Below, one piece after another: positions 1-48,018 of a DNA stretch of 64,000 bases. The notes under the pieces are model-generated. The model did not search any database. It was not told where the DNA came from and saw only the letters and a list, made by a program, of their open reading frames with translations. The translations under genes were made by a program, and so were the position numbers. Location of the stretch: assembly GCF_057098645.1 (NCBI RefSeq), contig NZ_CM169472.1; one strand, given 5' to 3'. How positions within the stretch are numbered: position 1 is the first letter of the stretch; each line of letters starts with the position of its first letter.

Positions 1-63
1 AGAGATGACAGGCGGACTTAACGACTGGCGGCAACAACAGAGTAACGGTTGCGAGGAAAGATG

Positions 64-291
64 ATGAAAACCGCAAAAGAGTACAGCGATACCGCAAAAC
101 GTGAGGTCAGCGTCGATGTCGATGCCCTGCTGGCGGCGATCAATGAAATTAGCGAAAGCGAAGTTCATCGCAGCCAGAACGATTCTGAACACGTTAGCGT
201 CGATGGACGTGAATATCATACATGGCGTGAATTGGCGGATGCCTTCGAACTGGATATTCATGACTTCAGCGTCTCTGAAGTGAATCGTTGA
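64..291 (+). CDS. yodD: Small stress-induced protein YodD
   Basis: 75-aa product MKTAKEYSDTAKREV... matches recalled YodD; position upstream of yedP as in K-12. ORF-track start at 49 is probably an upstream in-frame Met. Confidence 0.75.
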   Translation: MKTAKEYSDTAKREVSVDVDALLAAINEISESEVHRSQNDSEHVSVDGREYHTWRELADAFELDIHDFSVSEVNR

Positions 292-570
292 ATGCACAAT
301 AAAAAAATCCCGACCCTGAGGGGGTCGGGATGAAACTTGCTTAAGCAAGAAGCACTTAAAAAATTCGTTACACCAGGAAATCTGATGTGTTCATCACCTT
401 ATCCGCAATTTTTTTCGCTGACAAGAAAATATTCGCTATATGAATGATTAACGCTACTTATGAATAGAAATGTGACGCACGTCACCCCTTGGTGGCTCTG
501 GCGTCAGCGGGATCGCTCCCGAAAAAATCATCTTTGATTATTTGTGCTGTTTTGAGAATCATCCTGGTAA

Positions 571-3095
<2,525 letters not shown>

Positions 3096-3265
3096 CCTGA
3101 CGACTCCCCACCTGCTTTTTTATGATTCTGGCATAACCTGGCGATAGCGTACCGCAAAACAGCGATAATTTTATAATGGTGGCATGATAAGACGCGACTA
3201 TCATTCATTGCAGGCATTGGCACATCAGGCCGGATGTGATCCGGCCTGGTCTTAATGATACCCTT

Positions 3266-3448
3266 TCAAACTTCTTCCGCAGGACGACTCCCCTCCCCCG
3301 GAACAAGCTCGGTTTCATGAAAAGCTTCCCGCTTGACCCCGTAACCGTCATACCAACGACACTCAACCATACCGCTGGAGTATCCAGTGACAATCATCCG
3401 CGGGCCACCCTCTTTAACCGTAACTTCCTCACTAACCATAAAGCTCAT
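3266..3448 (-). CDS. yodC: Small protein YodC
   Basis: 60-aa ORF MSFMVSEEVTVKEGGPRMIVTGY... in the expected position between yedQ and yedI. Confidence 0.65.
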   Translation of the reverse strand: MSFMVSEEVTVKEGGPRMIVTGYSSGMVECRWYDGYGVKREAFHETELVPGEGSRPAEEV

Positions 3449-3526
3449 ACTCGCCTCCTTTTTTCGAGTGAAATTTGTTCACCTTAGTTGAAGATGGCGA
3501 ATTTTGCATAATAGCCTGTGCGAGTT

Positions 3527-4444
3527 TTAATGTGCCTGACCGCGCATTTTCTCTACGGCTTTCACTCCCAGCACCACGATGCCGCCGATGATAAATCCAA
3601 GAATCAGATTTAAAACAGTCGGTAATATCATCGCCACCACTGCACTTTGCTGCCCGGCGAAATGTTCAATGGCGTGATGCAGCGGCGCAATACCATGTAC
3701 CACAATCCCGCCGCCGACGAGGAACATCGCCAGCGTGCCGACAATCGATAACGCTTTCATCAGCCAGGGCGCAATGATCAATAACCCTTTACCTAATGCC
3801 TGCATCAGCGTGCTGGATTTTTCCGCCAGCCAATACCCCAGGTCATCAATCTTAACGATAACCCCTACCAGACCGTAGACGCCCACGGTCACTACCAGCG
3901 CGATGCCTGACAGTACCAGCACCTGATTAATCAACGGCGCTTCGGCCACAATCCCCAGCGTGATGGCGACGATTTCGGCAGACAATATAAAATCGGTACG
4001 AATCGCTCCTTTTATTTTGTCCTTTTCAAACTTCAGCGGATCCTGCGCCGCCAGCTTCTCCAGACGCTGCTGGCTCTGCGCCGGATCTTCCTTATGTTTA
4101 CGCGCCTCCAGCATATGCAGCACTTTCTCTACCCCTTCAAAGCAGAGAAACGCGCCACCAATCATCAACAGAGGCGTAATCGCCCACGGGATAAACGCAC
4201 TGATGATCAGCGCCAGTGGCACCAGAATCACTTTATTAATCAGCGATCCTTTCGCCACGCCCCAGACCACGGGAAGTTCCCGGTTGGCCCGCACGCCTGA
4301 AACTTGTTGCGCATTGAGCGATAAGTCATCCCCTAATACACCGGCGGTTTTCTTCGCCGCCAGTTTGCCCATCACGGAGATATCGTCCAGCAGTGTGGCG
4401 ATATCATCGAGCAACGTCAGTAAACTACTCCCGGCCAAAAGCAT
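3527..4444 (-). CDS. yedI: DUF808 inner membrane protein
   Basis: 305-aa ORF with several hydrophobic segments; conserved position. Confidence 0.8.
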
Positions 4445-4616
4445 TCCCTCTCATTTTTATTGTTGAAGGGTGTAAGTATGAAGCAAAAACGGCAGCTCTG
4501 ATACTTGCTTCACAGGTCAACATTTTTTTAACAATCAAGTGCAATTATATCTCTCGCCAGCAGAATGATTTTCACGTTTACTATGAACCACCTTTTTATT
4601 TCCACCGTGAGGGATT

Positions 4617-5537
4617 ATGCGTTTCCGCCAGTTATTACCGCTTTTTGGCGCGCTGTTTGCGTTGTATATCATTTGGGGCTCAACCTATTTTGTCATTCGG
4701 ATTGGCGTGGAAAGCTGGCCTCCATTAATGATGGCGGGCGTTCGATTCCTGGCAGCCGGTATTTTATTGCTGGCATTTTTGCTACTGCGCGGACACAAGC
4801 TCCCCCCGCTACGTCCGCTGCTCAATGCCGCGCTGATTGGCCTGTTATTGCTGGCTGTCGGTAATGGCATGGTGACGGTTGCCGAACATCAAAATGTTCC
4901 TTCCGGCATCGCCGCCGTAGTGGTTGCAACCGTGCCCCTCTTTACCCTGTGCTTCAGCCGCCTGTTTGGCATTAAAACGCGCAAACTGGAATGGGTGGGT
5001 ATCGCCATTGGGCTTGCCGGAATCATCATGCTCAATAGCGGTGGAAATTTAAGCGGCAATCCGTGGGGCGCGATTCTGATTTTAATCGGCTCGATTAGCT
5101 GGGCGTTTGGCTCAGTTTATGGCTCGCGCATTACCTTACCTGTAGGGATGATGGCGGGTGCGATTGAGATGCTGGCGGCAGGCGTGGTGTTAATGATCGC
5201 GTCGATGATTGCGGGTGAAAAACTGACGGCGCTCCCTTCCCTTTCAGGCTTCCTTGCGGTCGGCTATCTGGCGCTGTTTGGTTCGATTATCGCCATCAAC
5301 GCTTATATGTATTTAATCCGCAACGTCAGTCCGGCTCTCGCCACCAGCTACGCTTACGTTAACCCGGTGGTCGCGGTCTTGCTGGGTACGGGACTGGGCG
5401 GAGAGACGTTGTCGAAGATTGAATGGCTGGCGCTCGGCGTAATTGTCTTCGCGGTGGTACTGGTCACGTTGGGAAAATATCTCTTTCCGGCAAAACCCGT
5501 AGTTGCGCCAGTTATTCAGGACGCATCAAGCGAGTAA
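4617..5537 (+). CDS. yedA: EamA/DMT-family transporter
   Basis: 306-aa polytopic membrane protein (about 10 TM segments) in the expected position. Confidence 0.8.
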   Translation: MRFRQLLPLFGALFALYIIWGSTYFVIRIGVESWPPLMMAGVRFLAAGILLLAFLLLRGHKLPPLRPLLNAALIGLLLLAVGNGMVTVAEHQNVPSGIAAVVVATVPLFTLCFSRLFGIKTRKLEWVGIAIGLAGIIMLNSGGNLSGNPWGAILILIGSISWAFGSVYGSRITLPVGMMAGAIEMLAAGVVLMIASMIAGEKLTALPSLSGFLAVGYLALFGSIIAINAYMYLIRNVSPALATSYAYVNPVVAVLLGTGLGGETLSKIEWLALGVIVFAVVLVTLGKYLFPAKPVVAPVIQDASSE

Positions 5538-5996
5538 ATGAATCCCCTGCGTGTCGATCTGCGCGCTGGCACCTTCGCCGCAGATCCACTCTTCCAGACG
5601 CTCGCTAAGCGCTTCATCCGTCAGCTTCTCGCGCCCACGTAACGCGCACTCCCAGACAATCAATACGCGCCAGCCGAGTTCCTGCAAGCGACTGATATCG
5701 CGGCGATCGCGCTCAACATTTTTACCTATCTTCTCCAGCCAGAACTCGGTTCGAGTCGCAGGCACTTTAAACAGATAGCAGTGATGATGATGCCAGAAGC
5801 AGCCATGGGTAAATATCACGCAGCGATATTCATCAACGACAAAATCCGGGCGTCCGGGCAGACTGGCGTCCTGAACGCGAAACGCCAGGCCCTGCCCGGT
5901 TAACAGACTGGCGAGGCGCTTCTCAATCGCCGTATCACGCGTGGCAATCGCGCGCATATTTTTGCTGCGAGTGGCCTTATCGTGAACGTCGGCCAT
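5526..5996 (-). CDS. vsr: Very short patch repair endonuclease
   Basis: 156-aa product [25 protein letters not shown]...; start is internal to the 210-aa track ORF and overlaps the 3' end of dcm, the classic dcm-vsr overlap. Confidence 0.85.
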
Positions 5997-7395
5997 GTTG
6001 TGCCTCTTGCTGACGCAACGCCACCGCCTGTTTGATTTTTGGCTCAAGCAGTTTTGCCACCGCGGCAAAGACCGGCACGACCACCGAGTTACCGAACTGG
6101 CGATAGGCCTGAGTGTCCGAAACCGGAATGCGGAATTTCGCTTCTCCCGGCGCTTCAAAACCCATTAAGCGCGCGCATTCCCGAGGCGTTAACCGACGTG
6201 GACGATGTTGCTGATTCTGCGGATCGTCAAAGTCTTTCTCACCCGTGGCCATATCCCAGCCGCGATCGATTAAAATTTCCGCGCCATCTTTGTAATAACG
6301 CGCAGACAGCGTACGGGTGACGCTTTGCGGATTGTTCGGATAAACCATTCCATAACCGAAGCCGTTACCGCGCGCCTGATGTTTTTTCGCATATCGATAG
6401 AGGTACTTCCACAGCACCGGCGTCAGGATATATTTCGCCTCGACCATCGGGTCCAGCAGCTGCGCTAGCGTCACTCGCTGTCCAGGGAAACATTCGCTGA
6501 TATCACGCAGAGTAAAATCGGCTTTAAGATTCAGATCGCGACGAAAACCCACCAGCACGATGCGTTCACGGTGCTGCGGCAGAAAATGTTTACCATCGAT
6601 GATTTTCGGATCGTCCGGCCCGTTATCTTCTGCATCAGCCACGTCATAGCCCAGTTCGTCCAGCGTCTGCATGATGATGCGGAACGTTTTACCCTGGTCG
6701 TGGCTTTTCAGGTTTTTGACGTTTTCGAGCACAAACATCGCCGGACGACGCGCGTCGATAATGCGCACCACATCAAAGAACAGCGTGCCCTGAGTATCGC
6801 AGGCAAAACCGTGCGCCCGCCCGAGCGAGTTCTTTTTCGATACGCCAGCCAGCGAAAATGGCTGACAAGGGAAACCGGCCAGTAAAACATCGTGTTCAGG
6901 AATGTGTTGACGAATATGTTCCGCCGCCGCCTCATCACTCACGCCTTCTTTATGGCTGAGGGTGATGTCGCGGATATCTTCATTAAAATGATGCGTCGCC
7001 GGATCGCAATAATGGTTGGCTTTATAAGTGCGTACCGCATGTTTGTTCCATTCGCTGGTAAACACGCACTGTCCGCCAATCGATTCAAAACCGCGACGGA
7101 TGCCGCCAATTCCGGCGAATAGATCGATAAAGCGAAACGCATAATGCGGATGATGTGCCGGTGGTTTGGGTAACAACGTTTGCAGATGGGCGAACTCTTT
7201 CTCACTTAAACGGTGCCATGCCGAGTCATTCGCCAGCGCACGTTTTAAAATTGCCGCGCTCCAGTGATTCTCACCTACACCATTAAGCTGAGCCACCAGC
7301 GTTTTAACATCATAAATTTGCAGCAGTTTCTCCAGCATTGCCTGTGCGGCATTCCCGGTGCTGTATGAATCGGTTACTGATATATTTTCCTGCAT
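5977..7395 (-). CDS. dcm: DNA cytosine-5 methyltransferase
   Basis: 472-aa ORF with C5-MTase motifs ([17 protein letters not shown]). Confidence 0.9.
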
Positions 7396-7461
7396 AGATT
7401 TAACCGGCCATCTGAGATGGTCGACAGGTTAACATAATTACTGCCGTTTAGGGCCACGCGC

Positions 7462-8157
7462 TCAGCCCGCAGGTGAAAACGCATCTATCACCTTGTGATC
7501 GACACCTTCATTCTCCCCCGCCAGTTCGGCACTGAGCTTCGCCATAAACTCGACTAAAAATTGCGCGTTGTGCTGCGCCAGCTGCTTGCCTCTTACGGTT
7601 TGCATGGTTTGCGGTAGCTTCAGCAACTTAGTCTGGAAATGATCCAGCGCGTAGCGTTTATCATCAAGCGGGCGATACTGTGCGAACGGATCTTCGCCAT
7701 CAAACAGCGCCACGCCCAATGCCCCTGAAACGGCAAACACGCGCGCCAGGCCAATCGCCCCCAGGGCTTCCAGCCGATCCGCATCCTGGACGATTTTAGC
7801 TTCCGTGGTTAAGGGGGCGATTTGCGCGCTGAAACTGTGAGCGGCAATGGCATGACAAACGGCCTCGATTTTCTCCGCCGGAAATTGCTCGAACTCTTCA
7901 CGGAGCAGGCGACGCGTCTCTTCTGCCGCCAGGATTGAAGAACGCTGCCGTTGCGGATGATTTTTCGCCAAGCTCACAATATCGTGAAAATAACAGGCGG
8001 TTAAAATCACCAGCATATCGACGTCATCATCTGCCGCCAGCTTCTGTGCCGTAGCCCAGACGCGGCGAAAATGACACACGTCATGGGCCGCGTCCTGGTG
8101 CTGATGATGGTTTTTCAACCAGTTTTCGAACTCTGCCTGCCAGTGTTGTAAGTCCAT
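7462..8157 (-). CDS. yedJ: HD-domain phosphohydrolase
   Basis: 231-aa ORF with HD-domain His/Asp residues (CHFRRV... HD); conserved position. Confidence 0.8.
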
Positions 8158-8196
8158 ACGCGCTCCGTTGCCAAAGAGTCGCCACCTTAGCAGTTT

Positions 8197-8499
8197 TTAT
8201 TCATAGCGTCTGCTACGTGCGGGACGAGGTCGGGTGTACCAGGCAATGCTGCCTAACAATGCCCCGACCAGAGCCATAAATAAAAATCCGACCAGTGCCC
8301 CTAACCACTTTCCCGCGGTAGAGCCTAAATCGCTTTCAAATCCCGACACGGGGGCATCGGGGATCCGGCTCATCACCCAGATGTAACGCGCCATTGCCCA
8401 GACGAAATAGCCACACCATGTATAGAAAGCCCACAAAGCCAGTTTGCCACCAGGGCTGCGAGAGAGTCTCTCTTCCATCTTTGTCGAACCGTATTCCAT
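8197..8499 (-). CDS. yedR: Small inner membrane protein YedR
   Basis: About 100-aa product with two hydrophobic helices; start chosen at internal Met (MEYGSTKMEERL...) of the 127-aa track ORF. Confidence 0.65.
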   Translation of the reverse strand: MEYGSTKMEERLSRSPGGKLALWAFYTWCGYFVWAMARYIWVMSRIPDAPVSGFESDLGSTAGKWLGALVGFLFMALVGALLGSIAWYTRPRPARSRRYE

Positions 8500-8729
8500 T
8501 TTGAGATAACCCGGAAAATTCAGACTTAGTACTATTATGTGATAAAAATCACATTTTTCCACATTGAATGAGCCAGTCAAGACTCAATCATTTTTTGAAC
8601 AAATAGATAATTTTTGCGCAACGGCAGTGAATACAAGAAAAATCGTTTTGAGCGATTTTATTTATCTTTGATATCGGCTTTATTAATTCATTCAATCAAT
8701 ATATTAGCACTGATTACAATTATACCTTT

Positions 8730-10792: not shown

Positions 10793-11341
10793 ATGACTGT
10801 TCAAACAAGTAAAAATCCGCAGGTCGATATTGCTGAAGATAATGCATTCTTCCCTTCAGAATATTCGCTTAGCCAATATACCAGTCCTGTCTCTGATCTT
10901 GATGGCGTGGACTATCCAAAACCGTATCGCGGTAAACATAAAATTCTGGTGATCGCCGCGGACGAACGTTATTTGCCAACCGATAACGGAAAACTGTTCT
11001 CGACCGGTAACCATCCGATTGAAACGTTGCTGCCGTTGTATCATCTCCATGCTGCAGGTTTCGAATTCGAAGTGGCGACCATTTCCGGTCTGATGACCAA
11101 GTTTGAATACTGGGCTATGCCGCACAAAGATGAAAAAGTAATGCCATTCTTTGAGCAGCATAAATCGTTGTTCCGCAATCCGAAGAAACTCGCGGATGTT
11201 GTCGCCAGCCTCAACGCTGATAGCGAATATGCAGCAATCTTTGTTCCTGGTGGTCATGGCGCACTTATTGGTTTACCTGAAAGCCAGGACGTAGCTGCCG
11301 CTTTACAGTGGGCAATCAAAAATGGGTTTTTTGTTGCCTGA
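10793..11341 (+). pseudogene. hchA: hchA (Hsp31 glyoxalase) 5' fragment, interrupted by prophage integration
   Basis: First ~177 residues match HchA (MTVQTSKNPQVDIAEDNAFFPSEY... AAALQWAIKN), then the frame runs into phage DNA (GFFVA, stop). The missing C-terminus is found at 47701-48018. Confidence 0.85.
11316..11336. other. attL junction (host hchA / phage)
   Basis: hchA reading frame diverges after ...gcaatcaaaaatg; imperfect identity with the right junction (AAATGggTTTTtTGTT versus AAATGaccgTTTTGTT). Confidence 0.5.
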
Positions 11342-11390: not shown

Positions 11391-11412
11391 TGGCGACAAA
11401 ATGGCGGCAGCG
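11391..11412. repeat. 22-bp direct repeat, putative integrase arm-type site (copy 1)
   Basis: TGGCGACAAAATGGCGGCAGCG, about 70 bp inside attL; near-identical copy at 47582-47603 inside attR. Confidence 0.4.
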
Positions 11413-44903: not shown

Positions 44904-45125
44904 CTAATTAAGGTTTAGATTGCATTCTGAAAGCGCATCAACGGTCATTGCTGCTATGTTGATCATCACTTTTTCGCGTTTTTTATCTTTGCGCAGACGG
45001 TGACGGATAAGGCGTCCATCAGCCAACATGTCATTGATGGTATCGATGGATAGCCCTGTCAGCTCGCTATAGCGTTCAATAGTCACATGAGGCGTGGTAA
45101 GAGTGATTGAAATGTTAGGTCTCAT
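44904..45125 (-). CDS. Cox/Apl-like excisionase and switch regulator
   Basis: 73-aa HTH protein divergent from the repressor gene (...[22 protein letters not shown]...). Confidence 0.55.
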
Positions 45126-45244: not shown

Positions 45245-45820
45245 GTGACCATGAATTTGGAGAAAGGCGGACGAGGCGCTATAGAGCGCATGGTAGAAGC
45301 TTATGGATTCAAGACTCGACAGGCGTTGTGCGATCATTTAGGAATCTCTAAAAGTACACTCGCCACACGCTACATGCGTGACTCATTCCCAGCAGAATGG
45401 GTAATCCAGTGCGCCCTTGAAACAGGCACCTCGCTTAATTGGCTCACAACCGGGCATGGTTCAAAGCAAACTTCAGGTAATACAAATACTATGGAAGTTG
45501 CTAAATATGTATTATCTGATGGGGCCTTGTGTGAAGACGGTTTTTATATTTTCGATAGAGAATTTCTACCGTCGGCATTCAAGAATCTTTTTGTAATCAC
45601 AGATAATAATTCTGAATTTATTTGTGATAAGGAATTTGATGATATACGTGATGGTAAATGGGTAATAAGTATTGATGGCGAAATAACGATCCGTGACATT
45701 ACTCGTTTACCCGGTGGAAGAATCTTCGTCGAGGGTGGAAACAGAGCCTTCGAATGCAAGATAGAAGACATTGAAATAATTGGTAAAATTATAAGCTTAA
45801 CAGTCAAGTATGTTAAATAG
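45245..45820 (+). CDS. 186-type CI immunity repressor
   Basis: 191-aa ORF; N-terminus ...MVEAYGFKTRQALCDHLGISKSTLATRYMRD...CALETGTSLNWLTTGHG resembles 186 CI; followed by int on the same strand. Confidence 0.7.
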   Translation: MTMNLEKGGRGAIERMVEAYGFKTRQALCDHLGISKSTLATRYMRDSFPAEWVIQCALETGTSLNWLTTGHGSKQTSGNTNTMEVAKYVLSDGALCEDGFYIFDREFLPSAFKNLFVITDNNSEFICDKEFDDIRDGKWVISIDGEITIRDITRLPGGRIFVEGGNRAFECKIEDIEIIGKIISLTVKYVK

Positions 45821-45835
45821 TACCGGGAGGAAATT

Positions 45836-46027
45836 ATGCTTGGTAAGGTATTTTTTGTGGTTTTGTCATGTTCTTTGTTATTAAACCCACTAGCTACCTA
45901 TGCTAGAAATTATCCCTGCTCAGGGAAAAAGGGAGGTGTTTCTCACTGTACCTCTGATGGCAAATTCGTTTGCAATGATGGAACTATTAGTAAATCCAAA
46001 AAAATCTGTACTAAAAACTCACGATAA
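45836..46027 (+). CDS. Small secreted cysteine-rich peptide (lysogenic-operon cargo)
   Basis: 63-aa ORF with signal peptide ([19 protein letters not shown]) and about 40-aa mature part with 5 Cys and many Lys/Gly; RBS ggagg upstream. Confidence 0.45.
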
Positions 46028-46215: not shown

Positions 46216-47247
46216 ATGGCTGTACGAAAACTCACCACAGGAAAATGGCTTTGCGAATGTTACCCCGCCGGACGTAGTGGGCGTCGTGTGCGTAAACAAT
46301 TCGCCACCAAAGGCGAAGCACTGGCTTTTGAGCGTCACACGATGGAAGAAACCGAAGCAAAGCCCTGGCTGGGTGAATCAGTGGATCGTCGAACACTGAA
46401 AGACGTGGTTGAGCTATGGTTCAAACTACATGGTAAATCACTGACTGCTGGGCAGCATGTCTATGACAAATTGCTGCTGATGGTTGACGCTCTGGGCAAT
46501 CCCCTTGCAACTGATCTCACATCTAAAATGTTTGCCCACTATCGAGATAAACGCCTGACAGGTGAGATCTACTTCAGCGAGAAATGGAAGAAAGGAGCAA
46601 GCCCGGTCACCATTAACCTGGAGCAAAGCTATCTAAGTAGTGTTTTTAGCGAACTATCCCGCCTGGGCGAATGGTCGTATCCGAACCCACTGGAGAACAT
46701 GCGAAAATTCACCATCGCAGAAAAAGAGATGGCATGGCTTACCCATGAGCAGATTGTTGAATTGCTGGCTGATTGCAAACGTCAGGACCCAATTCTGGCA
46801 CTGGTAGTTAAGATATGCTTAAGCACAGGCGCACGTTGGCGTGAAGCCGTAAATCTTACCCGCTCACAGGTGACCAAATACCGAATTACCTTTGTAAGAA
46901 CGAAGGGGAAGAAAAACAGAAGCATCCCTATCAGTAAAGAGCTTTACGAAGAGATCATGGCGCTTGATGGGTTCAATTTCTTTACAGACTGCTATTTTCA
47001 ATTTTTATCCGTGATGGAAAAAACGTCTATCGTGCTCCCTCGCGGTCAACTGACACACGTTCTGCGCCATACGTTTGCGGCGCACTTCATGATGTCGGGT
47101 GGAAATATCCTGGCCTTACAAAAAATTCTCGGGCATCACGATATAAAAATGACTATGCGTTACGCACATCTGGCACCGGATCACCTGGAAACTGCATTAC
47201 GGTTTAATCCGCTGGCAACACTACCAACATCAATAGCAAGTTTTTGA
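46216..47247 (+). CDS. int: Tyrosine integrase (P2/186 family)
   Basis: 343-aa product from MAVRKLTTGKW...; C-terminal catalytic region (HVLRHTFA...MRYAHL) with conserved R/H/Y residues. Confidence 0.85.
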   Translation: MAVRKLTTGKWLCECYPAGRSGRRVRKQFATKGEALAFERHTMEETEAKPWLGESVDRRTLKDVVELWFKLHGKSLTAGQHVYDKLLLMVDALGNPLATDLTSKMFAHYRDKRLTGEIYFSEKWKKGASPVTINLEQSYLSSVFSELSRLGEWSYPNPLENMRKFTIAEKEMAWLTHEQIVELLADCKRQDPILALVVKICLSTGARWREAVNLTRSQVTKYRITFVRTKGKKNRSIPISKELYEEIMALDGFNFFTDCYFQFLSVMEKTSIVLPRGQLTHVLRHTFAAHFMMSGGNILALQKILGHHDIKMTMRYAHLAPDHLETALRFNPLATLPTSIASF

Positions 47248-47305
47248 AAATGCGTATTTTGCCCTGTTGAGCTAATATTCTTTTTTTTCACATGGAGCAC
47301 TATCA

Positions 47306-47575
47306 ATGAATAAGTTTCAGCATCAGGGAGCGGAATTGCGCAACAGAGCCAAAGAATTGGCTTTATCCGTACTTAAAACTCACCCAGATGCCCAAAAAAA
47401 CGGCAACGGCGTTAAGCAAGCTGAGGTATTTCGTCTAAGCGGCCTCGATTGGGGAGAAAAACGGAAAGCAACAAGTTCGAACCAACAATATTGGGTTGTT
47501 GCACTATTGCGTGAACTAGAAGAGGAGGGGTTAGTCGAACAGATTGAAGATAGAGGCCCCTGGCGTCTAAGGTAA
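47306..47575 (+). CDS. Hypothetical protein between int and attR, possible winged-helix regulator
   Basis: 89-aa ORF; C-terminal YWVVALLRELEEEGLVEQIEDRGPWRL resembles a winged-helix recognition element. Confidence 0.35.
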   Translation: MNKFQHQGAELRNRAKELALSVLKTHPDAQKNGNGVKQAEVFRLSGLDWGEKRKATSSNQQYWVVALLRELEEEGLVEQIEDRGPWRLR

Positions 47576-47581
47576 AACAAG

Positions 47582-47603
47582 TGGCGACAAAGTGGCGGCA
47601 GCG
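47582..47603. repeat. 22-bp direct repeat, putative integrase arm-type site (copy 2)
   Basis: TGGCGACAAAGTGGCGGCAGCG, 21 of 22 identical to 11391-11412. Confidence 0.4.
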
Positions 47604-47691
47604 GTTGGCATTACCCCGTAATAACCACCACTGACCACCAACCCAACTTATTGTTTTTACTCTAACTTATTGTTTTCATTAACCCATTTAC

Positions 47692-47712
47692 ATAAATGAC
47701 CGTTTTGTTATC
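47692..47712. other. attR junction (phage / host hchA)
   Basis: hchA frame resumes exactly here (..aaatgac cgt ttt gtt atc = N D R F V I). Confidence 0.5.
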
Positions 47713-48018
47713 TCCCTTTGCCACGGCCCGGCGGCTTTTCTGGCGCTTCGCCACGGCGATAACCCACTGAATGGTTATTCCATTTGCGCATTCCCAGACG
47801 CCGCAGACAAACAAACGCCAGAGATAGGCTATATGCCGGGTCATCTCACCTGGTACTTCGGCGAAGAGCTGAAGAAAATGGGCATGAACATTATTAATGA
47901 CGACATCACCGGGCGAGTACATAAGGACCGTAAAGTTCTCACCGGCGACAGTCCTTTCGCAGCGAATGCGTTGGGTAAACTGGCGGCGCAGGAAATGCTG
48001 GCAGCTTACGCGGGTTAA
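47701..48018 (+). pseudogene. hchA: hchA 3' fragment
   Basis: Encodes RFVISLCHGPAAFLALRHGDNPLNGYSICAFPDAADKQTPEIGYMPGHLTWY...AAYAG, the HchA C-terminus including the catalytic Cys region. Confidence 0.85.

What the first reader, a model, noticed from the sequence alone, without database searches (positions are those of the whole stretch)
47306..47575. Extra ORF between int and attR
In P2 the integrase gene abuts attP. Here an 89-aa ORF with a winged-helix-like C-terminus lies between int and the junction and reads outward towards host hchA. It could be a moron regulator or an integration/excision directionality factor.
Basis: inference. Interest (0 to 1): 0.35.

Follow-up and report, generated by a model that had tools for sequence, protein, structure and literature searches.

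The report
Accessory winged-helix gene at prophage end
A real, conserved 89-residue gene has been inserted between the integrase gene and the attachment site of a P2/186-like prophage. It encodes a stand-alone winged-helix protein from an uncharacterised family that moves between very different mobile elements, so it is cargo rather than part of the integration machinery.

Summary
It is a genuine gene. About 200 homologues of constant length (88-91 aa) exist, and non-synonymous change is far lower than synonymous change.

Close relatives with a 96%-identical int (Klebsiella phage 4LV2017, E. coli phage vB_EcoM-813R9) lack it. In them int runs straight into the attP arm repeats. Here a ~353-bp block (about 47226-47578) sits between int and the arm and replaces the integrase's last residues.

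Only 209 of the 1119 complete E. coli genomes that carry this att arm have the gene. The prophage already encodes a Cox/Apl-type excisionase. Homologues 50-55% identical occur as a 389-bp integron-type cassette in marine bacteria, in Tn7-like cargo, and at the guaA end of Firmicutes mobilisable elements. A role as directionality factor is therefore very unlikely, and "moron" fits.

AlphaFold (pLDDT 94) gives a complete winged helix with an invariant ATSSNQQYW recognition-helix start. It matches no Pfam, PHROG, NCBIfam or PADLOC model and only generic winged-helix structures. I infer a self-sufficient trans-acting binder, probably of nucleic acid, co-transcribed with cI-int. Its actual function is unproven.

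The parts
47306..47575 (+). ORF89: 89-aa stand-alone winged-helix protein (identical to WP_001032044.1)
47294..47297 (+). GGAG Shine-Dalgarno, 8 nt before the ATG
   Evidence: read directly from the sequence
47226..47578 (.). Block of ~353 bp absent from close relatives. It carries a new 3' end for int (codons for ...TSIASF*), a 58-bp spacer and ORF89. The boundaries are ambiguous by a few bases (CAA/CAAGT microhomology).
   Evidence: alignment A2; Int tails
46216..47247 (+). P2/186-type tyrosine integrase, 343 aa. Its C-terminal tail differs from ORF-less relatives (...NPLATLPTSIASF* versus ...NPLATLPSGDKVAAAVGITP*).
47580..47603 (+). P-arm direct repeat AAGTGGCGACAAAGTGGCGGCAGC, a probable Int arm-type binding site. 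It is nearly invariant in lineages whose ORF89 has diverged to 69% nt identity.
   Evidence: The function is inferred by analogy with P2 attP.
47645..47676 (+). Two AACTTATTGTTTT repeats 19 bp apart in the P arm, possibly accessory-factor (IHF or Cox/Apl) sites
   Evidence: read from the sequence; inference only
47694..47709 (+). attR core AAATGACCGTTTTGTT. The attP/primary attB core is AAATGGGTTTTTTGTT. The hchA 3' part continues from here to 48018.
11320..11335 (+). attL core AAATGGGTTTTTTGTT at the break in the hchA 5' part (10793 to about 11324)
11391..11412 (+). P'-arm copy of the arm-type repeat (ATGGCGACAAAATGGCGGCAGC)
44904..45125 (-). Cox/Apl-like excisionase-repressor. This is the prophage's own directionality factor.
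   Evidence: phrog_575, E 4.8e-30
45245..45820 (+). 186-type CI repressor, first gene of the rightward cI - small ORF - int - ORF89 string

Best explanation
ORF89 is a horizontally acquired accessory gene (a moron). It was inserted into the narrow interval between int and the P arm of attP in one lineage of rcdA-targeting P2/186-like phages.

It has no detectable promoter or terminator of its own and follows cI, a small ORF and int on the same strand. It is therefore most likely made in the lysogen from the lysogenic cI-int transcript (inferred).

The product is a single winged-helix domain that works on its own (shown by its occurrence as a one-gene integron cassette). Its putative recognition-helix start (ATSSNQQYW), the preceding CGLDWG loop and the wing WR are invariant from E. 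coli to Clostridia. I therefore infer that it binds in trans a target that is the same in very different hosts. The target is most likely a nucleic-acid feature, less likely a conserved protein, and not a linked operator or an att site.

Its carriage by prophages, integrons, Tn7-like elements and mobilisable elements, and in a known minor defence hotspot of P2-like phages, points to a role in conflicts between mobile elements, or between element and host (inferred, not shown). It is not part of the integration/excision machinery.
For: - Real gene under purifying selection.
- Insertion relative to relatives with a 96%-identical int.
- Same int-ORF89-arm order in diverged lineages and in 13 IMG/VR prophage contigs.
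- Dispensable for the Int/att system: 209 of 1119 genomes.
- Own Cox/Apl-like factor present.
- Autonomy and mobility: a 389-bp cassette with GTTRRRY-type boundaries and an attC-like hairpin in three different arrays; Tn7-like cargo; the guaA end of Firmicutes elements; a lone insertion in a liu operon.
- Fusions of the domain to a DUF4145-like domain (two tandem copies) and to a DUF6998 domain that has a weak match to a methyl-directed restriction-enzyme model.
- No + strand promoter or terminator near the ORF.
- The int-att interval is reported as a minor defence hotspot of P2-like phages: bioRxiv 10.64898/2026.02.27.708500.
Against: - There is no expression data.
- No binding target was identified, and the upstream regions of homologues share no motif.
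- The family's pI ranges from 4.7 to 9.4, so it is not uniformly basic as many DNA binders are.
- No PADLOC defence model is hit.
- No homologue is found in 50,697 deposited phage genomes or 72,556 plasmids, so its value to an actively spreading phage is unproven.
- The E. coli copy has Ser in place of the nearly invariant Cys45.
Confidence: 0.5

Rival explanations
1. It is a conventional sequence-specific transcription factor (a moron regulator) that represses or activates particular prophage or host promoters, perhaps as a dimer through the long helix 1.
For: Winged-helix fold, with best matches including the DNA-binding domains of IclR-type repressors (TtgV, 28-31% identity over the aligned part). 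In Firmicutes it always follows an XRE-type regulator gene.
Against: The putative recognition helix is invariant across phyla, while the flanking DNA and the hosts differ completely. No conserved operator-like motif lies upstream. It has no effector or oligomerisation domain. It also occurs as a promoterless integron-type cassette.
Confidence: 0.22
2. It is a recombination directionality factor or att-binding accessory protein for the neighbouring integrase.
For: It lies 58 bp after int and 4-6 bp before the arm-type repeat. It is small and winged-helix, like Xis, Cox and Apl. In Firmicutes it is also the last gene before an att site.
Against: It is absent from 81% of E. coli prophages or remnants with the same arm, and from phages with a 96%-identical int. 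A Cox/Apl homologue is present. Homologues occur without any integrase or att site. The invariant helix cannot match unrelated att sequences. No Xis/Cox/Apl model is hit. 207 of 209 ORF-bearing prophages use the normal rcdA site.
Confidence: 0.03
3. It is a protein-binding module, such as an inhibitor or adaptor of a conserved host or rival-element protein (for example an orphan antitoxin-like or anti-defence factor), with no nucleic-acid binding.
Against: No conserved partner gene was found. The upstream neighbours differ: int, XRE, an MGMT-like 110-aa gene, or none. The fusions are to DUF4145-like and possibly nuclease-like domains, where a DNA-targeting role is the more usual one.
Confidence: 0.15
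4. It is a functionless hitch-hiker or a mis-called ORF.
For: No promoter or terminator was found. It is annotated only as hypothetical.
Against: Constant length, 14 invariant columns, pN well below pS, dN/dS 0.13, 50-55% identity across phyla, and a confident fold.
Confidence: 0.02

Closest known systems
Accessory or defence genes in the integrase-att interval of P2-like phages (minor hotspot; bioRxiv 10.64898/2026.02.27.708500)
   Same: Same position in the same kind of phage, present or absent among close relatives, with intact flanks.
   Different: ORF89 matches no known defence model (PADLOC). It is a single 89-aa domain with no enzymatic part. I did not find it named in that paper or elsewhere.
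Zalpha (Z-DNA/Z-RNA-binding) winged-helix domains of PKZ, ZBP1, ADAR1, E3L/ORF112
N-terminal winged HTH of IclR-family repressors (e.g. TtgV, PDB 2xrn)
   Different: No HTH_IclR Pfam match, no effector-binding domain, and E-values of only about 0.05.
Cox (P2), Apl (186) and Xis-type directionality factors
   Same: Small winged-helix or HTH proteins of temperate phages that act at att arms. ORF89 is adjacent to int and the arm.
   Different: Different family. This prophage has its own Cox/Apl homologue. ORF89 is optional for the Int/att system and also occurs outside integrative elements.
Integron gene cassettes of unknown function
   Same: The marine homologue (51% identity) is a discrete 389-bp unit with GTT-type boundaries and an attC-like hairpin, in arrays of co-oriented small ORFs.
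   Different: The prophage copy has no attC-like element. Its stop codon is 4-6 bp from the arm repeat.

Membership tests
Recombination directionality factor (Cox/Apl/Xis type) | Co-distributed with its cognate integrase and att site | tested here: not met
   209 of the 1119 E. coli genomes with this arm carry it. Phages with a 96%-identical int lack it.
Recombination directionality factor (Cox/Apl/Xis type) | Sequence membership in a known excisionase family | tested here: not met
   No significant Pfam or PHROG hit. phrog_575 (Cox-like) is matched by a different gene, 44904-45125.
Recombination directionality factor (Cox/Apl/Xis type) | Homologues confined to elements with a site-specific recombinase | tested here: not met
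   Integron-type cassette arrays and an insertion in a liu operon, with no integrase nearby.
Recombination directionality factor (Cox/Apl/Xis type) | Stimulates excision and/or binds the att arm | not testable with these tools
   Needs excision assays or footprinting.
Phage moron (accessory insertion) | Extra DNA between genes or sites that are adjacent in close relatives | tested here: met
   ~353-bp block absent from 4LV2017 and vB_EcoM-813R9, with flanks 96-100% identical.
Phage moron (accessory insertion) | Own promoter and terminator | tested here: not met
   No + strand promoter-like site at 46900-47306, and no terminator between 47575 and the att core. The downstream RNA fold has z +0.26. 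The scans are consensus-based only.
Phage moron (accessory insertion) | Expressed from the prophage | not testable with these tools
   Needs lysogen RNA-seq or Ribo-seq.
Winged-helix fold | H1-(b1)-H2-H3-b2-b3 topology with a hairpin wing | tested here: met
Zalpha domain | Sequence match to z-alpha (PF02295) | tested here: not met
   Not listed at E<=1 for the query, nor at E<=0.1 for 35 members. hhalign probability 0.2%.
Zalpha domain | Asn173/Tyr177 on helix 3 plus Trp195 in the wing (ADAR1 numbering, from my own knowledge) | tested here: not met
   The only aligned segment puts Arg69 at Tyr177, which puts Val65 at Asn173. Trp86 lies at about the Trp195 position by counting from the conserved Gly (inference).
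Zalpha domain | Binds left-handed Z-DNA or Z-RNA | not testable with these tools
   Needs CD or EMSA with d(CG)n.
IclR-family regulator | HTH_IclR domain plus C-terminal effector domain | tested here: not met
   No Pfam match. The protein is 89 aa, a single domain.
Integron gene cassette (prophage copy) | attC recombination site after the ORF, GTTRRRY boundaries | tested here: not met
   The stop codon is followed after 4-6 bp by the att arm repeat, and there is no attC-like hairpin.
Integron gene cassette (marine homologue P0062) | Discrete unit bounded by GTT core sites, with an attC-like imperfect palindrome | tested here: met
   Identical 389-bp unit in different arrays, ending ...GCGTT|AGGC, |AAGC or |ATTT. 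The bottom-strand hairpin folds at -22.1 kcal/mol, z -2.8. No intI was seen within +/-6 kb, and no curated attC model was run.
Known anti-phage defence systems | Match to a PADLOC model | tested here: not met
   0 families for ORF89. Only weak hits (E 0.01-0.025) for the fused relatives.

The most novel reading that the evidence does not exclude
The ORF89 family is a self-sufficient reader of a universal nucleic-acid feature (a non-B/Z-like conformation, a modification or a lesion) that mobile elements exchange across phyla. The stand-alone form would act as a defence or counter-defence factor, for example by occupying the feature that the nuclease- or DUF4145-fused relatives target. That would make it a bacterial functional analogue of the Zalpha domains, built with different contact residues.
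Probability: 0.1. Interest if true: 0.7.

Novelty: new member of a known kind. Interest (0 to 1): 0.35.

Why it matters
It also gives a base-level example of how P2/186-like phages can take on cargo inside the tight int-attP interval by re-making the integrase's C-terminal tail while keeping the arm sites.

It also flags a small protein family with no model in Pfam, PHROGs, NCBIfam or PADLOC. The family is under strong constraint and has moved between Enterobacteria, gut Clostridia and marine bacteria on four different kinds of mobile element. Such single-gene, widely exchanged modules are good candidates for new defence or counter-defence functions and are cheap to test: one 270-bp gene, with the identical protein present in the well-studied strains CFT073 and HS.

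Tried and rejected
1. I first took the 22-bp repeat (11391-11412 and 47582-47603) for the att core. I rejected this because identity to the rcdA-site lysogens runs on to 47713, empty sites match only from about 47696, and hchA is broken at about 11324 and 47697. The repeat is an arm-type site.
2. Directionality factor: rejected (see the membership test).
3. The idea that the ORF or the altered Int tail relaxes site choice, prompted by the window's hchA insertion and HZ13's ompF insertion: rejected. 207 of 209 ORF-bearing prophages are at rcdA.
4. A conserved two-gene (toxin-antitoxin-like) module: rejected. The upstream neighbours are unrelated (int, an XRE regulator, an MGMT-like 110-aa protein, a low-complexity 76-aa ORF, or none).
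5. True Zalpha membership: rejected.
6. Integron-cassette origin of the prophage copy: no attC or GTT boundaries were found.
7. Sequence searches of PDB, the literature (accession and motif strings), phage genomes and plasmids all returned nothing.
8. The AFDB50 fold library was unavailable.
9. Context look-ups for the fused relatives P0125 and P0138 gave only short contigs.

Full report
**Observation.** The window carries a 186/P2-like prophage of about 36 kb. At its right end, reading rightward, lie:
- a 186-type cI (45245-45820);
- a 63-aa signal-peptide ORF (45836-46027);
- int (46216-47247);
- the ORF in question (47306-47575; 89 aa; ATG; GGAG 8 nt upstream).

An 89-codon ORF means little by itself, but this one is a gene. 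A search of 5.8 billion proteins returned 200 homologues, nearly all 88-91 aa. An alignment of 35 diverse members has 14 invariant and 10 nearly invariant columns. Between this copy and a 69%-identical copy in another E. coli prophage, pN is 0.19 and pS is 0.76. dN/dS is 0.13 between that copy and an Enterobacter one. RefSeq calls it WP_001032044.1, hypothetical protein.

**Where the junction really is.**
- hchA is split. Its 5' part runs from 10793 to about 11324 (...QWAIKN). Its 3' part resumes at about 47697 (NDRFVISLCHG...) and ends at 48018.
- The 22-bp repeat just after the ORF (47582-47603, repeated at 11391-11412) is not the crossover site.
- Identity to lysogens at another locus continues to 47713, and empty sites match only from about 47696.
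- The core is AAATGGGTTTTTTGTT. The attL copy is at 11320-11335. The attR copy, at 47694-47709, reads AAATGACCGTTTTGTT.
- The 22-bp repeats are therefore best read as Int arm-type sites on the P and P' arms, by analogy with P2 (inference).
- The normal attachment site lies just downstream of rcdA. 207 of the 209 ORF-bearing E. coli prophages are there.
- The hchA insertion seen here occurs in none of 5426 complete E. coli genomes.

**It is an insertion.** Klebsiella phage 4LV2017/KP12 and E. coli phage vB_EcoM-813R9 have an int 95-96% identical at the DNA level and the same P arm, but no ORF.
- In the alignment, their int runs straight from ...NPLATLP into the arm repeat and ends inside it (...SGDKVAAAVGITP*).
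- In the window, about 353 bp (roughly 47226-47578) intervene. This block supplies a new short Int tail (...TSIASF*), a 58-bp spacer and ORF89.
- The arm repeat begins 4-6 bp after the ORF's stop codon.
- The same order (int, spacer, ORF89, arm repeat) is found in a diverged lineage: E. coli HZ13, where the prophage sits in ompF, and an Enterobacter remnant. There the ORF is only 69% identical in DNA, while the arm is nearly unchanged.
- It is also found in all 13 IMG/VR prophage contigs that carry a homologue. There Int is 91-100% identical and ORF89 67-100% identical.
- In complete E. coli genomes the arm occurs in 1119 and the ORF in 209, which is 19%.
- A 2026 preprint on thousands of P2-like prophages lists the int-att interval as a minor hotspot holding 3% of their defence systems (10.64898/2026.02.27.708500).

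**Not a directionality factor.**
- The gene is optional for this Int/att system (above).
- The prophage has its own Cox/Apl-like excisionase-repressor at 44904-45125 (phrog_575, E 4.8e-30).
- ORF89 matches no excisionase family.
- Homologues occur without any recombinase (next section).
- I also tested whether the ORF, or the changed Int tail, goes with use of secondary sites. It does not.

**What the protein is.** No Pfam, PHROG, NCBIfam or PADLOC model reaches significance. The best is a sub-threshold BLACT_WH winged-helix match in 12 of 35 members. No PDB sequence relative exists.

An exhaustive profile search of 1.84 billion cluster representatives found only 113 clusters, so the family is small and tight.

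AlphaFold2 with the 35-sequence alignment gives a confident model (pLDDT 93.8, pTM 0.83): helix 3-25, helix 38-44, helix 57-73 and a two-stranded wing (77-79, 86-88). The whole protein is thus one winged-helix domain.

Structure searches find only generic winged helices:
- Foldseek's best E-value is 0.05 (TtgV, an IclR-type repressor, 28% identity).
- The viral structure library adds nothing specific.

The family is not a Zalpha domain. hhalign gives 0.2% probability and places Arg69 at the Tyr177 position, which puts Val65 at Asn173.

Distinctive features are a long invariant loop between helices 2 and 3 (CGLDWG.Y.KA), an invariant start of helix 3 (TSSNQQYW), and WR in the last strand.

**Where else the family lives.**
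- Firmicutes: it is the last gene before the 3' end of guaA, at the end of integrase/NikA/Mob mobilisable elements, always just after an XRE-type regulator gene. Some Ruminococcus genomes retain only a stump of that regulator plus the gene.
- Marine bacteria: a 51%-identical copy is a discrete 389-bp unit, 98.7% identical between different arrays of co-oriented small ORFs. It starts at GTTGTAC and ends ...GCGTT before AGGC, AAGC or ATTT, and has an attC-like hairpin (z -2.8). I read this as an integron-type cassette, although no intI gene was seen within 6 kb.
- It is also in the cargo of a Tn7-like element, after an MGMT-like 110-aa gene, and alone inside a leucine-catabolism operon.
- Upstream sequences share no motif across these contexts, and no partner gene is conserved.
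- A few relatives carry two tandem copies behind a DUF4145-like domain (E 0.003). Others carry one copy behind a DUF6998 domain that weakly resembles a methyl-directed restriction-enzyme model (E 0.02), or behind a DUF6364-like N-terminal domain (E 0.004).
- No homologue is present in 50,697 deposited phage genomes or 72,556 plasmids.

**How it most likely works.**
- Shown: it is a selected, mobile, single-domain winged-helix protein. It is an optional insertion between int and attP, and it can function as a lone gene.
- Inferred: no promoter-like or terminator-like site accompanies it, and it follows cI and int on the same strand. It is therefore probably translated from the lysogenic transcript, which would then run on across attR into host DNA.
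- Inferred: the residues that would contact a ligand on the recognition helix and wing are identical from E. coli to Clostridia, while hosts, flanks and elements differ. The target should therefore be something common to all hosts, such as a nucleic-acid feature or a conserved protein, rather than a linked operator or an att site.
- Its carriers and its position in a known defence hotspot suggest a role in conflicts among mobile elements. That is a guess with no direct support, and PADLOC finds nothing.
- The family's pI range (4.7-9.4) keeps a protein-binding role open.

**Verdict.** The 'moron' reading is supported, the 'directionality factor' reading is not, and 'regulator' is untested. It is a new, unnamed member of a familiar class (phage accessory genes in a known hotspot, with a winged-helix fold). 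It is made modestly interesting by its cross-phylum mobility and strict conservation.

Noticed in passing
window 10793-11335 and 47694-48018: The prophage sits inside hchA (Hsp31/glyoxalase III) at a secondary site whose core AAATGACCGTTTTGTT-ATCT resembles the normal rcdA-side core AAATGGGTTTTTTGTT-ATCT. The gene is split after ...QWAIKN. None of 5426 complete E. coli genomes has this junction, and 207 of 209 ORF-bearing prophages are at rcdA.
   Followed up: partly
L036 (E. coli HZ13, NZ_CP128609.1) 4905-7404: A diverged prophage of the same integrase lineage, with its own ORF89 copy, is inserted in ompF. ompF is annotated there as a pseudogene missing its N-terminus.
   Followed up: no
window 45836-46027: A 63-aa ORF with a signal-peptide-like start and six Cys lies between cI and int (phrog_6000, E 3e-34; NCBIfam NF007463 'hypothetical protein'). 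This slot is variable: a DUF4041 protein in HZ13, a 323-aa hypothetical in CFT073, and an ATPase annotated as 'chromosome segregation ATPase' in vB_EcoM-813R9. It is probably the 'between integrase and primase' accessory slot of P2-like phages.
   Followed up: partly
window 47226-47247 versus L027/L028: The insertion replaces the last 13 residues of Int (SGDKVAAAVGITP) with six others (TSIASF). The HZ13/Enterobacter lineage has a third tail (MGQPTLDAAHVRA). In ORF-less phages the int reading frame overlaps the arm-type repeats. Whether the tail matters for Int activity is unknown.
   Followed up: partly
window 47580-47640; L036 and L015 6284-6340: The arm segment AAGTGGCGACAAAGTGGCGGCAGCGGTTGGCA.TACCCCGTAAT is almost invariant in lineages where the adjacent ORF has diverged to 69% identity. 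This fits a protein-binding DNA site that used to be coding sequence.
   Followed up: no
L009-L014 (Ruminococcus-like metagenome contigs) 5249-6276: Next to guaA, only the last 60-73 codons of the XRE-type regulator survive, followed by the intact 91-aa homologue. This arrangement is recorded on 196 contigs. The small gene outlives the element that brought it.
   Followed up: partly
L015-L019 (Enterobacter) 1-8600: A decayed P2-like prophage (truncated int, portal and tube fragments) keeps ORF89 and an AAA_15/AAA_21 ATPase plus DUF3226 gene pair that looks like a defence module. An arsRBC operon lies between ORF89 and the TetR-family (rcdA-like) gene.
   Followed up: no
P0121-P0127, P0131 (metagenome proteins): These proteins have two tandem copies of the ORF89 domain. 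Several carry them behind a ~140-aa N-terminal domain with an R..(G/C)N...H motif that weakly matches DUF4145 (E 0.003). The contigs available were too short to show context.
   Followed up: partly
L029-L035, gene at L029 5672-6004: In a Tn7-like element (TniB/TniQ), the homologue overlaps by 4 bp the end of a 110-aa gene. That gene weakly matches the O6-methylguanine-DNA methyltransferase DNA-binding domain but has LTNR in place of the catalytic PCHR motif. A DndB-like gene and a GIY-YIG gene follow.
   Followed up: no
window 47662-47922 (-): The 86-aa minus-strand ORF in the mechanical list is antisense to the hchA 3' fragment and the att core. It has no family match and is almost certainly spurious.
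   Followed up: yes
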